This document shows, one piece after another, positions 23,321 to 32,853 of a stretch of DNA of 64,000 nt. Source of the DNA: the human T2T-CHM13v2.0 reference genome, Homo sapiens; NCBI GenBank assembly GCA_009914755.4, contig CP068257.2, positions 6,272,001-6,336,000 of the forward strand, read 5' to 3'. Position numbers and translations under genes: made by a program. A model generated the notes under the pieces. The model did not search any database. It was not told the DNA's origin and was given only the letters and a program-made list of their open reading frames with translations. Each line of letters begins with the position of its first letter. The first letter of the stretch is position 1.

Positions 23321-23660
23321 TCACTGCTGGTCTCCGGGCTGGGTGGAGACCACTGTCCCAGGAAACACCGGGCCCGCCCTGCGTCCAGGCCTGACACCCC
23401 TCTGGCGGCTTGCCTCATCTGTGCCTCCGCGCCACCGTCGCTGGCCCGCCCGTGACCATACAGACTCCCAGCTGCCACCATGGAGCTCCTGGCGGAGGAA
23501 CCCAGACTTCTAGCTCTCTTTACCAGCCTCCTGGCTACACATGCGCTCATTGCACTCCCCAGCTGACGTACAAAGGAGCCCGCTGGCCTCTCTGTGACCC
23601 TGTCCATCCGTGAAATTCCGGCTAAGGCTCTCCCAACACCTTCCGATGCTCTTTAGTCAA
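23321..23660 (+). repeat. Inverted duplicate of the D4Z4-like 3' flank. It is the reverse complement of about 21758-22095 and is fused to the truncated homeobox 2 of block C.
   Basis: Minus-strand ORF 23014..23607 starts [49 protein letters not shown]... This is the same peptide as + strand ORF 21809.. ([49 protein letters not shown]...) read from the opposite strand. 23641-23660 CTCTTTAGTC is the reverse complement of the GACTAAAGAG junction. Confidence 0.85.
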
Positions 23661-26600
23661 AGCCTGGAGAATAGGTACATCTCCTGGATGATCAGTTCAG
23701 AAATGTGTCACAATGCCCCCTCCCTGCGGAGCATAGAGAAGATTTGCATCATTTGGGTGATCAGTGCAGAGATATAACACAATGTCCCCTGTACAAAAAG
23801 CCTGGAAATGATTTACATCACCTTGGTGATCAGTGCATAGGTATGTCAGAAATCCCCAGTAGGCTGAACCTAGACAAGGGTTACATCACTTAGGTGATGA
23901 GTGTAGAGATATGTGAAAATTCCCGTGTAGACAGAGCCAAGACAAGTGTTACATCACCTAGTGATCAGTGCAGGGATAAGTCGTAAAGCCTCCTTTAGGC
24001 AGAGTGTAGAAAATTGTTTCCTCCCTGGGGTGATCAGTGCAGAGAAATGTCACAAAGCCCCTGTAAGCAGAACCTTGACAAGGGTTACATCACCTGTTTG
24101 ATCTGCGGAAATGTATATCACAAAGCCCCCTGTAGGCAAAACCCAGACAATTGTTACATCACCTGGGTGAGCAGTGGAGGGATCTGTCACAATGCCCCTG
24201 TAGGCAGAGCTTAGACAAGGGTTACATCACCTGGGTGATCAGTGAATAGATATGTCAAAACGTTCCTTTAGGCTGAACCTAGACAGGAGTTACATCAACC
24301 AGGTGATCAGTGCACAGATATGTGAGAATTCCTGTGTAGGGAGAGCCTAGACCAGTTTTTCATCAACTAGGTTATCTGTGCAGGTATAAGTCATAAAGCC
24401 TCCTGTAGGCAGAGCGTAGACAAGAGTTCCATCCCCAGGGTGATCAGTGCAGAGATGTGTCACAAAGCCCCTGTAGGCAGAGGCTAGACAATAGTTTCAT
24501 CACTTGTTTGTTCAGTTCAGAGATGTGTCACAATGTCCATGTAGACAGATCTAAGACAAGCGTCCATCACCTGGGTGATCAGTGCAGAGATATGTCCCGA
24601 TGTCCCCTGTAGGCACTGCCTAGACAAGAGTTGCATCACCTCAGAGATCAGTGCATAGATATGTCACAAAGCCTTCTATAGGCAAAGCCCATACAAGGCT
24701 TACATCACCTAGGTGATCAGTGCAGTGATATGTCACACAAATCCCTGTAGACAGACCGTAGACAAGAGTTACATCACCTGGGTGATCAGTGCAGATATTT
24801 GACACAATGCCCCCATAGACAGAGTCTAGACAAGACTTCCATCTCCTGCGTGATCAGTGCAGAGATATGTCACAAATCTCCCTCTAGGCAGAGTATAGAG
24901 AAGAGTCCCATCACCTGGGTGACCAGTGCAGAGTTACTTCACAATATCCCCTGTAGACAGAGAGTTGACAAGAGTTACATAACCTACGTGACCTGTGCAG
25001 AGCTATATCAAAACGCCCCTGTAGGCAGATCCTATGTAAATGTTACATCACCTGGGTGATCAGTGCAGAGATACGTCACAATAGCCCCTGTAGGTGGAGC
25101 CTAGAAATGAGTTACATCACCTGGGTGATCAGTGCAGAGATAAGTCACAATGCACCCTGTAAGCTGTGCATAGAGAAGAGTTGCATCACCTGGGTGATCA
25201 GTACAGAGATATGTCACAATGGCCCCTGTTGGCAGAGCACAGAGAAGAGTTGCATCACCTGGGTGATCAGTGCAGAGATATGTCACAGTGCCCCCGTAGG
25301 CAAGGCCTAGGCAAGAGTTACATCACCTTTGTCATCAGTTCAGGGATATGTGAAAACGCCCCTGTAGGCAGAGCCTAGACGAGTGTTACATCACCTAGTT
25401 GATTAGTGCAGAGATATTTCACAATACCTCCTGTAGGCAGATCCTAGACAAGAGTTGAATCACCTGGGTGATCAGTGCAGAGATATTTCACAATGCCCCC
25501 TTTGGGCAGAGGGTAGACAAGAGTTATATCACCTAGGTGATCCGTGCAGAGATTTGACAAAATTCCCTGTATGCAGTGCTTATAAAAGTGTTACATCACC
25601 TAAGTGAGCAGTGCAGAGATATGTCACAAAGCTCCTGTAGGCAGAACTTAGATGAGTTACGTCACCTGGGTGATCAGTGCAAAGGTATGTCACAAAGCCC
25701 CGTGTAGGCAAAGCCTAGAATATCGTTACATCACTTGGGTGATCAGTGGTGAGATTTCTCACAGTTCACCTGTCGGCAGAGCTTATACAACAGTTACATC
25801 ACCTGGGTGATCAGTGCAGAGACATGTCACAATGCCCCCATAGGCAAATCCAAGACAAGAGTCCGTCACCTGGGTGATCAGTGCAGAAATATGTCACAAT
25901 GCCCCCTTAGGCAGAGCCTAGACAAAACCCCATCACCTGGATGATCAGTGCAGAGTTATGTCGCAAAGTCCCTTTAGGCAGTTCCTAGACAATGTTACAT
26001 CACTTGGATAACCAGAGCAGAGATATGTCACAATGCCAATGTAGGCAGAGCATAGACAAGATTTACATGACCTAGGTGATCAGTGCAGAGATGCATCGCA
26101 ATGAACCTGTAGGCAGAGCCTTGACAAGTGGTACATCACCTGGATGAACATTGCAGGGATATGTCACAAAGCACCCTGTAGGCAGATCCCAGAAAATAGT
26201 TACATCACCTGGGTGATCAGTGCAGTGATATGTCACAATGCCACTGTAGGCAGAGCCTAGACAAGAATTACATGACCTAGGTGATCAGTGCAGAGATACT
26301 TCGCAATGCCCCTGTAGCCAGAGCCTTGACAAGTGGTATATCACCTGCGTGATCATTGCAGGGATATGTCACAAGGCACCCTGTAGGCAGATCCTAGAGA
26401 AGAGTTATATCACCTAGGTGATCAGTGCAGAGATATGTCACAAGCCCCCTGTAGGCAGAGCCTAGACAAGGGTTATATCACCTGGGTGATCAGTGCAGTG
26501 ATATGTCACAATGCCGTGTAGCCAGAGCCCAGACTAAAGTTACAGCACCTGGGAGATCAGTGCAGAGATATGTTACAATGTCCCCATTAGGCACAGACCA

Positions 26601-31894: not shown

Positions 31895-32853
31895 TTTCCG
31901 GGCAGACCTCCTGGCTGCACCTGCTGCAGTGCACAGGCCGGCTGAGGTGCACGGGAACCCGCGGGCTGGCGGAGCTCTGCGGGCACCCGGAAACATGCAG
32001 GGAAGGGTGGAAGACAGACATGGTGCCTGCGGCCGGGGGTTGTTGGGGTGGGGGTGGAGGGTGTGGTGATGGTGGTGGTGGGGCCGGAGAGACGAAGAGG
32101 AAGGGGGCGAGGGGGAAGGGGTGAGGGGTGTGCATTTGAGGGGCTGGCTCTCCGGACCTCTCCAGGAATCCCACGGGAACTGGAAGCCGCTCTCTGGGCT
32201 CCCATGCACCTTCAGCAGGGAGAAACCCGCCTGGGAGGGTGGAGTGGAGAGTGGAACTGAACCTCCGTGGGAGTCTTGAGTGTTCCAGGCCCTCTCTCCG
32301 TGTAGGAGGCAGTGCCTGTGGGCCTACAGAGGGCGTTGTGACATCACTCTGCACGGATCACCCGGGTTATGTAACTCTTGTCTAGGCTCTGCCTACGGGG
32401 GCATTGTGACTTATCTCTGCACTGATCACCCAGAAGATGTGACTCTTGTCTAAGCTCTGCCTAGAGGGACACCCAGGTGATGGGACTCTTGTCTAGGCTC
32501 TGTGTATGGGGGCTTTGTGACATGTCCCAATGTCCCCGCGATGGCACTCTCGAAACCTTCGGAGGGCACCCTCCCCAGCCCCATCCCCCACCCCCGGAAA
32601 ATGTGTCCTCCCCTGGGCTGAGTGGCTAGACCTGCAGTCATTGCACACACCGGCTGACGTGCAAGGGAGCCCCCTGGCCTCTCTGTGCCCTTGTGCATCC
32701 GTGCTCAGTACAGAAATATGTCACAAAGCCCCTGTAGGCAGAGCCTAAATAAGAGTTACATCTCCTGGGTGGTCAGTGCAGAGATATGTCATAAATCCCT
32801 GTGTAGGCAAAGCCTAGAGAATTTTACATCACCTCAGCGATCAGTGCAGAGAT
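31895..32853. repeat. Mosaic of short D4Z4-like fragments and beta-satellite monomers in alternating orientations. 31897-~32025 is 5'UTR-like plus far-upstream pieces, DUX4 sense on +. ~32026-32322 is promoter-distal hhspm3-like, antisense on +. 32323-32520 is beta-satellite F. 32521-32700 is an inverted chimera: DUX4 start codon with about 12 codons fused to the 3' flank, with internal deletions. 32701-32853 is beta-satellite R.
   Basis: 31897-31960 (CCGGGCAGACCTCCTGGCTGCACCTGCTGCAGTGCACAGGCCGGCTGAGGTGCACGGGAACCCGC) aligns to the canonical D4Z4 5'UTR in sense. 32026-32322 aligns to block A 9510-9830. 32533-32570 reads CCGCGATGGCACTCTCGAAACCTTCGGAGGGCACCCTCCC, encoding M-A-L-S-K-P-S-E-G-T-L-P (cf. 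DUX4 [12 protein letters not shown]) on +, followed directly by the reverse complement of 3' flank sequence. Confidence 0.7.

What the first reader, a model, noticed from the sequence alone, without database searches (positions are those of the whole stretch)
23321..32025. An inverted segment of about 8.6 kb of beta-satellite bounded by D4Z4-like fragments.
Satellite monomers read in F orientation from 1 to 21757 and again from 32323/33953 onward. The block 23661-31894 reads as their reverse complement. Both ends of the inverted segment carry D4Z4-like fragments with DUX4 sense on the + strand (23321-23660 and 31897-~32025), whereas all other blocks have it on the minus strand. This indicates that one inversion or fold-back event used the GC-rich D4Z4-like units as breakpoints, which is a model for how these arrays rearrange. 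Strand-flips within beta-satellite arrays are rarely resolved in assemblies.
Basis: seen in the sequence. Interest (0 to 1): 0.65.

Follow-up and report, generated by a model that had tools for sequence, protein, structure and literature searches.

The report
Complex inversion in beta-satellite/D4Z4-like array
A real 8.2-kb flipped stretch of human-type beta-satellite sits between the two halves of what looks like one broken DUX4-pseudogene repeat unit, joined by untidy non-homologous junctions; such strand flips are already known to be common in these arrays, so this is an ordinary example resolved to the base.

Summary
All 121 beta-satellite (bSat) monomers at 23649-31892 are on the minus strand, and they are plus on both sides. 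The flanking D4Z4-like fragments (23336-23648, 31891-32028) are also flipped.

The "one inversion or fold-back" reading is too simple. I mapped nine non-canonical junctions (J1-J9), eight of them within 31892-32853. Most junctions show about 2-10 bp of microhomology or a few bases of filler. None shows long homology, so NAHR is unlikely. The inverted unit edge is 82% identical to its neighbour but 91% to a unit 30 kb away, so it is not a fold-back copy or a hairpin artefact.

The inverted bSat is one complete inter-unit spacer with its natural unit edges. The forward flanks (unit positions 1571 and 1659) are nearly contiguous, as if a 9.5-kb mostly inverted mosaic were inserted into one DUX4-pseudogene unit. 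I favour microhomology-mediated template switching or end-joining. Stepwise decay after a simple inversion is not excluded.

The kind is known: published T2T and pangenome surveys count hundreds of strand switches in bSat arrays. Interest is low.

The parts
19124..21766 (+). Forward beta-satellite spacer (39 monomers) upstream of block C
   Evidence: nhmmer orientation track; TRF
21767..23338 (-). Block C-left: D4Z4-like unit positions 1-1571 in standard array orientation, with the DUX4-like frame on the minus strand. It is truncated inside homeobox 2 at about aa 134.
   Evidence: blastn to unit A 7324-8891; tblastn DUX4 aa 134-424 at 23337->22472; the canonical bSat->unit boundary at 21767 is spanned in 59 independent contigs
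23336..23338 (.). J1: head-to-head junction joining forward unit position 1571 to rc unit position 313, with 3-bp microhomology GGG
   Evidence: Local alignments to units A and G on both strands; spanned in 0 of 120 independent contigs
23336..23648 (+). Inverted D4Z4-like unit start (unit 313->1); no DUX4-coding sequence
   Evidence: blastn, minus-strand match to A 7324-7633 and G 53267-53577; 90.9% to G and 82% to C; its boundary with bSat at 23648 is canonical, spanned in 60 contigs at up to 95%
23649..31892 (-). Inverted beta-satellite, 8244 bp, 121 monomers: one complete inter-unit spacer lacking only its first monomer
   Evidence: The last ~760 bp is in exact register with the bSat upstream of units A, B and G at 92-97%, and the far end matches bSat 69-71 bp after the ends of units A and B
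31891..31966 (+). J2 (TG(G) microhomology) followed by inverted unit fragment 2094->2019
31967..32028 (+). J3 (3-nt filler TGG at 31967-31969) followed by inverted unit fragment 2745->2687. This is out of order relative to the previous piece.
   Evidence: 94.9% to A 10065->10007
32025..32322 (-). J4 (GCCT, 4-bp microhomology, second head-to-head junction) followed by forward unit fragment 2204->2498
32322..32526 (+). J5 (1-bp overlap) followed by ~205 bp (about three monomers) of forward beta-satellite
32527..32700 (+). J6 (about 6 nt of filler) followed by an inverted, internally deleted unit: 1977->1935, J7 (CCCTCCC(C)), 358->304, J8 (about 10-bp homeology), 118->1
32701..32853 (-). About 2-3 inverted beta-satellite monomers (153 bp; three nhmmer hits at 32699-32854), ending at J9 (GAT microhomology)
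32851..33946 (-). Block F: D4Z4-like unit positions 1659-2762 in standard orientation (DUX4-like aa 1-104 on the minus strand). With C-left it makes one unit lacking 87 bp.
   Evidence: blastn to A 8979-10082; tblastn; canonical unit-end->bSat boundary spanned in 84 contigs
7321..10083 (-). Unit A: the fullest D4Z4-like unit (2763 bp), used as the coordinate reference. It is a DUX4-like pseudogene at 9289->8024 with five in-frame stops.

Best explanation
This is a real, old, complex strand switch inside a beta-satellite/D4Z4-like ('LSAU-BSAT') composite array. One complete 8.24-kb inter-unit bSat spacer lies reversed, still attached to its natural unit edges. It is followed by a ~0.96-kb patchwork of short unit and bSat pieces in alternating orientation. 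The whole 9.5-kb mosaic sits between the two nearly contiguous halves of what appears to be a single D4Z4-like DUX4-pseudogene unit, with 87 bp lost.

The joins are non-homologous, with about 1-10 bp of microhomology or homeology or a few bases of filler. I infer that the structure arose by microhomology-mediated repair of a break or collapsed fork inside a D4Z4-like unit. The most likely route is serial template switching of the MMBIR/FoSTeS type, or alternatively multi-fragment end-joining, possibly with later small deletions. It has no function; it is a scar of array instability.

Shown: the orientation, the segment map, the junction sequences, the absence of long homology and the non-identity of the arms. 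Inferred: a single-event origin and a replicative mechanism.
For: - Orientation.
- Segment map: nine non-canonical junctions, eight of them within 31892-32853, with pieces of 43-298 bp alternating in strand.
- Junction overlaps: J1 GGG, J2 TG(G), J4 GCCT, J9 GAT, J7 7-8 bp, J8 about 10-bp homeology, and fillers at J3 and J6. This matches the MMBIR signature described by Hastings et al. 2009: complex events mixing deletions and inverted segments, with 2-5 bp microhomology.
- J1 joins non-homologous unit positions (1571 and 313), so it is not NAHR.
- The forward flanks end and resume at unit positions 1571 and 1659. My estimate of the chance of being that close is about 6%. Both flanks keep canonical outer boundaries.
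- The inverted spacer is complete and keeps a canonical boundary with its unit start.
- J1-J9 are absent from 120 independent human-derived D4Z4-like contigs, whereas canonical boundaries are spanned in 59-86 of them.
- Junction density is 9 in 9.5 kb, against 2 private junctions in the remaining ~54 kb.
Against: - No high-identity source copy of any inserted piece exists in the window. The best long alignment of the 8.5-kb block is 80%, and the short pieces reach 86-95%. A copy-paste (templated) origin is therefore unproven.
- The array is old: units are 82-88% identical to each other and 88-93% to the sampled family. There was ample time for independent events.
- Private deletions also occur elsewhere in the window (unit B internal deletion, unit G 3' truncation).
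- Re-inverting 32025-32530 makes four pieces collinear as one deleted unit, which fits a nested inversion.
- Breakpoints were placed against paralogues that differ by 10% or more, so microhomology lengths are uncertain by about 2 bp.
- The contiguity of the two flanks could be coincidence.
Confidence: 0.5

Rival explanations
1. An ordinary two-break inversion with breakpoints in two different D4Z4-like units (unit positions 1571 and 313) was followed over evolutionary time by independent secondary events. A deletion removed the reciprocal junction and left J9. A nested ~0.5-kb re-inversion produced J4 and J6. Several microhomology-mediated deletions produced J2, J3, J5, J7 and J8. These events were perhaps favoured because inverted D4Z4-like repeats at the junction form unstable palindrome-like structures.
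For: - The array is old and decayed.
- Private deletion junctions exist outside the inverted region.
- J7 and J8 are collinear deletions within one reversed unit.
- Re-inverting 32025-32530 makes unit pieces 1-118, 304-358, 1935-1977 and 2204-2498 plus bSat collinear (my reconstruction).
- Strand switches are reported as frequent in such arrays.
Against: - It needs about 8 separate events concentrated in under 1 kb, whereas the other ~7 kb of unit sequence shows 2.
- Pieces 2094->2019 and 2745->2687 are in the wrong order for a reversed unit.
- The near-contiguity of the forward flanks (1571 and 1659) must be coincidence, at about 6% by my estimate.
Confidence: 0.35
2. A fold-back inversion (inverted duplication) of the immediately adjacent sequence, as in breakage-fusion-bridge cycles or hairpin-primed replication.
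For: J1 is a head-to-head junction of two D4Z4-like units with bSat on both sides.
Against: - The inverted unit start plus 400 bp of bSat is only 82% identical to the adjacent block C copy, but 90.9% to G and 88.4% to A and B.
- The bSat next to the inverted unit start is in register with the A-B, upstream-G and upstream-A spacers, not with the B-C spacer.
- The spacer lengths differ: 8244 bp against 2643 bp.
Confidence: 0.03
3. NAHR between oppositely oriented D4Z4-like units flipped the intervening satellite.
For: D4Z4-like units are long (2.8 kb) paralogues, and flipped copies exist in such arrays (L010).
Against: J1 joins unit position 1571 to position 313, and J4 joins 2687 to 2204. These are non-homologous positions with only 3-4 bp of shared sequence. 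NAHR also needs pre-existing inverted copies, which only moves the question back one step.
Confidence: 0.03
4. An assembly or read artefact (false join or chimeric strand-switch read) in a hard-to-assemble satellite.
For: bSat/D4Z4-like composites are difficult to assemble. I could not examine reads. The J1 30-mer and ORFs crossing the junctions were not found in any public collection searched.
Against: - Assemblers mis-join at long identical repeats, not at 3-4 bp overlaps.
- Chimeric fold-back reads give near-perfect palindromes, whereas here the arms are 82% identical.
- The reversed block is 8.2 kb of internally consistent, diverged sequence with a canonical unit boundary.
- An independent contig (L010) shows the same kind of head-to-head D4Z4-like join with 83% arms.
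Confidence: 0.05

Closest known systems
Strand switches (inversion breakpoints) in human beta-satellite arrays catalogued in T2T-CHM13 and pangenome assemblies
   Same: The sequence context and phenomenon are the same. [quoted passage not shown]
   Different: In the passages I read, those surveys count switches from annotation tracks. They describe them as randomly distributed by-products of array expansion and give no base-level junction anatomy. Here the junctions are resolved, lie mostly in D4Z4-like sequence, and form a multi-junction mosaic.
LSAU-BSAT composite repeats with divergent D4Z4/DUX4 copies (Butterfield et al. 2023, PMC10620044)
   Same: Divergent D4Z4-like units about 90% identical to D4Z4 are interspersed with bSat blocks. 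They are described on acrocentric short arms and the chr1 pericentromere. The window's units contain a DUX4-like double-homeobox frame.
   Different: The window's units are pseudogenes with in-frame stops. They are more diverged from one another (82-88%) than the ~90% quoted. The chromosomal location of the window is unknown.
Inverted, truncated D4Z4 unit D4S2463 (DUX4c), about 42 kb proximal to the 4q35 D4Z4 array
   Same: It is an inverted, truncated D4Z4-family unit near same-family units in the opposite orientation. An inverted 2.5-unit array variant has been proposed to arise by insertion at the breakpoint of that unit.
   Different: D4S2463 lies in subtelomeric unique sequence, not in a bSat array. 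It retains a DUX4c ORF, and no satellite spacer is inverted with it.
MMBIR/FoSTeS complex genomic rearrangements (Hastings, Ira and Lupski 2009, PMC2621351)
   Same: Multiple clustered junctions, segments in both orientations, 2-5 bp microhomology and proximity to low-copy repeats.
   Different: Those are recent events in which the duplicated templates are identifiable. Here no donor copy is identifiable and the event is ancient, so its templated nature and single-event origin are inferred, not shown.

Membership tests
LSAU-BSAT (beta-satellite / D4Z4-like) composite array | Tandem 68-bp beta-satellite monomers | tested here: met
   TRF finds period 68 over about 53 kb. There are 784 nhmmer hits to the 68-bp consensus.
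LSAU-BSAT (beta-satellite / D4Z4-like) composite array | Interspersed GC-rich D4Z4-like units carrying a DUX4-type double-homeobox frame | tested here: met
   PDB 5z6z_A 'Double homeobox protein 4' at E=1.7e-81. Two Pfam homeodomain matches. tblastn hits in blocks A, C, F and G.
LSAU-BSAT (beta-satellite / D4Z4-like) composite array | Canonical unit/satellite boundaries shared with independent genomic copies | tested here: met
   The bSat->unit-start boundary is spanned in 59-61, and the unit-end->bSat boundary in 84-86, of 120 human-associated metagenome contigs, with top hits ranging from 89% to 96% identity by boundary.
LSAU-BSAT (beta-satellite / D4Z4-like) composite array | Location on an acrocentric short arm or the chr1 pericentromere; human origin | not testable with these tools
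   No human genome collection is available. Only indirect support exists: the related contigs come from human skin and gut metagenomes.
Simple two-break inversion | Exactly two junctions whose sides reconstitute the two parental sequences reciprocally | tested here: not met
   There are nine junctions. The expected rc unit 2762->1572 and forward unit 314.. at the right end are absent.
NAHR-mediated inversion | Breakpoints at homologous positions within long inverted paralogous repeats | tested here: not met
   J1 joins unit positions 1571 and 313, and J4 joins 2687 and 2204, with 3-4 bp of shared sequence.
Fold-back inversion / inverted duplication of adjacent sequence | The two arms are each other's closest relatives | tested here: not met
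   The inverted arm is 82% identical to the adjacent copy and 90.9% to distant unit G. The register analysis agrees.
MMBIR/FoSTeS-type complex rearrangement | Several clustered junctions joining segments of both orientations | tested here: met
   Eight junctions lie within 31892-32853, with alternating strands.
MMBIR/FoSTeS-type complex rearrangement | Microhomology of a few bp, or short insertions, at the junctions | tested here: met
   GGG, TG(G), GCCT, GAT, a 7-8 bp overlap, about 10-bp homeology and two fillers. Lengths are approximate because the references are paralogues that differ by 10% or more.
MMBIR/FoSTeS-type complex rearrangement | Inserted segments are copies of retained nearby templates | tested here: inconclusive
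   No donor above about 95% (short pieces) or 80% (8.5-kb block) exists in the 64-kb window or in the 120 contigs. A donor could lie outside the window or have diverged.
MMBIR/FoSTeS-type complex rearrangement | All junctions formed in one event | not testable with these tools
   This needs other haplotypes or species.

The most novel reading that the evidence does not exclude
Strand switches in beta-composite arrays may not be randomly placed by-products of expansion. They may instead be seeded preferentially inside the GC-rich D4Z4-like units by replication-fork collapse and microhomology-mediated template switching. If so, the D4Z4-like units would act as fragile sites that drive rearrangement of acrocentric and pericentromeric bSat arrays. 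In this window 14 of 18 junction sides lie in D4Z4-like sequence, which is about 15% of the window. One of two switches seen in independent contigs (L010) also lies inside D4Z4-like units.
Probability: 0.2. Interest if true: 0.45.

Novelty: new member of a known kind. Interest (0 to 1): 0.22.

Why it matters
The locus has no functional significance. Its value is as a base-resolved example of how beta-satellite/D4Z4-like composite arrays change strand. The joins are non-homologous and microhomology-mediated, lie mostly inside the D4Z4-like units, and left a multi-fragment scar. Published surveys count such switches but, in the passages I read, do not dissect them. If the pattern holds genome-wide, it would point to replication-associated breakage in the CpG-rich units as a source of structural change on acrocentric short arms. 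One locus cannot establish that.

Tried and rejected
- Rfam scan of the window: no matches.
- Search for a high-identity inverted donor within the window. The best alignment of the inverted block was 80%, against a 77-78% bSat background. No recent duplication partner was found.
- Exact-product look-ups of ORFs that happen to span J1 (197 aa) and J2-J5 (162 aa): not on record.
- J1 30-mer in metagenome contigs and genome contigs: no hits. A conserved unit 29-mer used as positive control found at least 120 metagenome contigs but none in genome contigs. The negative result is therefore only weakly informative for metagenomes and uninformative for the prokaryote genome collection.
- Search for an un-rearranged close copy of the C/F unit among the 120 contigs. 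All window units are about equally distant from them (88-93%), so the one-unit hypothesis could not be tested this way.
- Whole-spacer in-register homology with the A-B spacer. Only the ~760 bp next to the unit start and the far-end chunk are in register. The interior is built from shuffled higher-order modules.
- Fold-back, NAHR and simple-inversion models: rejected on junction and arm-identity evidence.
- Chromosome or species assignment: not possible with the collections available.
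Full report
**What the window is.** The window is 68-bp beta-satellite (bSat) interrupted by GC-rich blocks. The fullest block, A (7321-10083, 2763 bp), serves as the coordinate reference: unit position = A coordinate minus 7320. Its minus strand encodes a DUX4-like frame at 9289->8024. A 158-residue translation matches PDB 'Double homeobox protein 4' (5z6z_A) at E=1.7e-81. Pfam finds two homeodomains. The frame has five in-frame stops and no long ORF, so it is a pseudogene. 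The other blocks are partial copies of this unit at 82-88% identity: B 18269-19123, C 21767-23648, D 31893-32338, E 32517-32698, F 32855-33946 and G 53265-55609. This is the 'beta-composite' or LSAU-BSAT architecture described for acrocentric short arms and the chr1 pericentromere. I could not place the window on a chromosome or confirm the species. A conserved 29-mer from the unit retrieved at least 120 contigs from human-associated metagenomes.

**The observation.** A monomer-orientation track made with nhmmer and the 68-bp consensus shows plus-strand monomers at 2-7320, 10084-18268 and 19124-21766. All 121 monomers at 23649-31892 are minus. Three hits at 32339-32516 are plus, three at 32699-32854 are minus, and monomers are plus again from 33947. 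AT skew and TRF agree. The one '+' hit inside the reversed block has E=8. They are unit positions 313->1 at 23336-23648, then 2094->2019 and 2745->2687 at 31891-32028. None contains coding sequence, so 'DUX4 sense' is only unit polarity.

**Segment map.**

| Window coordinates | Content |
|---|---|
| 19124-21766 | bSat(+) |
| 21767-23338 | unit(+) 1-1571 (C-left) |
| 23336-23338 | J1, GGG |
| 23336-23648 | unit(-) 313->1 |
| 23649-31892 | bSat(-), 8244 bp |
| about 31891-31893 | J2, TG(G) |
| 31891-31966 | unit(-) 2094->2019 |
| 31967-31969 | J3, filler TGG |
| 31970-32028 | unit(-) 2745->2687 |
| 32025-32028 | J4, GCCT |
| 32025-32322 | unit(+) 2204->2498 |
| 32322 | J5, 1 bp |
| 32322-32526 | bSat(+), about 205 bp |
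| 32527-32532 | J6, about 6-nt filler |
| 32533-32575 | unit(-) 1977->1935 |
| 32569-32576 | J7, CCCTCCC(C) |
| 32569-32624 | unit(-) 358->304 |
| 32623-32632 | J8, about 10-bp homeology |
| 32623-32700 | unit(-) 118->1 |
| 32701-32853 | bSat(-), 153 bp |
| 32851-32853 | J9, GAT |
| 32851-33946 | unit(+) 1659->2762 (F) |
| 33947 onward | bSat(+) |

Breakpoints were placed against paralogues that differ by 10% or more, so overlaps are uncertain by about 2 bp.

**Canonical versus rearranged junctions.** I used the 120 independent contigs (379 kb) as a reference panel. The canonical bSat->unit-start boundary is spanned in 59-61 contigs and the unit-end->bSat boundary in 84-86, with top hits ranging from 89% to 96% identity by boundary. 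The boundary of the inverted copy at 23648 is spanned in 60 contigs at up to 95%. None of J1-J9 is spanned in any contig. Two other private junctions exist in the window: an internal deletion in B at about 18463 and a 3' truncation of G at 55609. Background decay therefore occurs, but at 2 junctions in about 54 kb against 9 in 9.5 kb.

**What the inverted block is.** I compared 340-bp chunks of the reverse-complemented block with the forward arrays. The ~760 bp next to the inverted unit start is in exact register with the bSat upstream of units A, B and G, at 92-97%. The far-end chunk matches the bSat that starts 69-71 bp after the 3' ends of units A and B. A direct alignment shows the inverted spacer begins exactly one monomer in from the canonical boundary. 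Its length (8244 bp) is close to that of the A-B spacer (8185 bp). The block is therefore one whole inter-unit spacer with its natural unit edges. That is why it is 'bounded by D4Z4-like fragments'.

**Models tested.**
- Fold-back of the neighbour: rejected. The inverted unit start plus 400 bp of bSat is 82% identical to adjacent block C, but 90.9% to G and 88.4% to A and B. This also argues against a chimeric-read palindrome.
- NAHR: rejected. J1 and J4 join non-homologous unit positions that share 3-4 bp.
- Simple two-break inversion: rejected as sufficient. It predicts rc unit 2762->1572 followed by forward unit 314.. at the right end, and neither is present.

Instead, the forward flanks end at unit 1571 and resume at unit 1659. 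My estimate of the chance of being that close is about 6%. Each flank keeps its canonical outer boundary. The structure therefore looks like one unit split by a 9.5-kb, mostly inverted mosaic with 87 bp lost.

**Mechanism.** The clustered junctions, short pieces of alternating orientation, microhomology and short fillers fit the MMBIR/FoSTeS signature or multi-fragment alternative end-joining. I favour this at about 0.5. The main rival, at about 0.35, is a simple inversion followed by a deletion of the reciprocal junction, a nested ~0.5-kb re-inversion and several small deletions. Re-inverting 32025-32530 does make unit pieces 1-118, 304-358, 1935-1977 and 2204-2498 collinear. The array is old: units are 82-88% identical to each other and 88-93% to the sampled family. 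Inverted repeats at a junction are known to be unstable (general knowledge). No donor copy was found, so a templated origin is not shown. Only other haplotypes or species can separate these two models.

**Comparison with what is known.** Altemose et al. report that the chr9 HSat3B5 array and the chr1 and acrocentric bSat arrays contain over 200 inversion breakpoints. A 2026 preprint on 320 assemblies reports hundreds of strand switches in bSat, correlated with array length and described as randomly distributed. The claim that such flips are rarely resolved is therefore outdated, and the kind of feature is known. What this analysis adds is base-level anatomy. An independent contig (L010) shows another head-to-head join inside D4Z4-like units, with arms 83% identical. 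A second contig (L115) switches strand within bSat. In the window, 14 of 18 junction sides lie in D4Z4-like sequence, which is about 15% of the window, but the junctions are not independent.

**Verdict.** It is a new, well-resolved member of a known kind, and interest is low.

Noticed in passing
window 62842-64000: The beta-satellite array ends at 62841 and abuts a LINE-1 fragment on the + strand. The sequence is A-rich and ORF2-like (for example ...[12 protein letters not shown]...), with GC 0.36.
   Followed up: partly
window 18269-19123 (junction at about 18463): Unit B is an internally deleted D4Z4-like unit: positions 1-200 are joined to 2101-2762. The junction lies between two internally repeated segments of the unit and is private (0 of 120 independent contigs).
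   Followed up: partly
window 55609/55610: Unit G is truncated at unit position ~2372 and joins bSat at a non-canonical point. This junction is also private (0 of 120 contigs).
   Followed up: partly
window 7348-7448 vs 9293-9399: The D4Z4-like unit has an internal direct repeat of about 100 bp at 76-79% identity. The copies flank the DUX4-like frame (unit 28-128 and 1973-2079), which makes short-fragment assignments near these positions ambiguous.
   Followed up: no
window 33947-53264 and 23649-31892: The bSat shows weak higher-order periodicity. Self-alignments reach 79.3% over 16.6 kb at offset 2796 in the long forward array, and 82.4% over 5.3 kb at offset 3001 in the inverted block, against a background of about 77-78%. 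At 340-bp scale, chunks match several places at 90-95%.
   Followed up: partly
window 23014-23607 (minus strand): A 197-aa ATG-initiated ORF runs across J1. It fuses sequence from the inverted unit start to the C-terminal part of the DUX4-like homeobox 2 and downstream region. It is almost certainly fortuitous, and the exact product is not on record in the public collection.
   Followed up: partly
L010 1-7140 (metagenome contig OOQC01000249.1): This independent human-derived contig has the structure bSat(-), unit(-) 2761->904, unit(+) 497->2762, bSat(+). It is a head-to-head D4Z4-like junction whose arms are 82.8% identical, so it is not an assembler hairpin.
   Followed up: partly
L115 about 3604-3655 (metagenome contig): The strand switches from bSat(+) to bSat(-) within satellite sequence, about 0.6 kb downstream of an intact D4Z4-like unit. 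I did not check whether it is an assembly artefact.
   Followed up: no
window units A, B, C, F, G vs L001-L120: Every unit in the window is closer to the abundant contig family (88-93%) than to its neighbours in the window (82-88%). This star-like pattern suggests an old, non-homogenised part of a composite array.
   Followed up: partly
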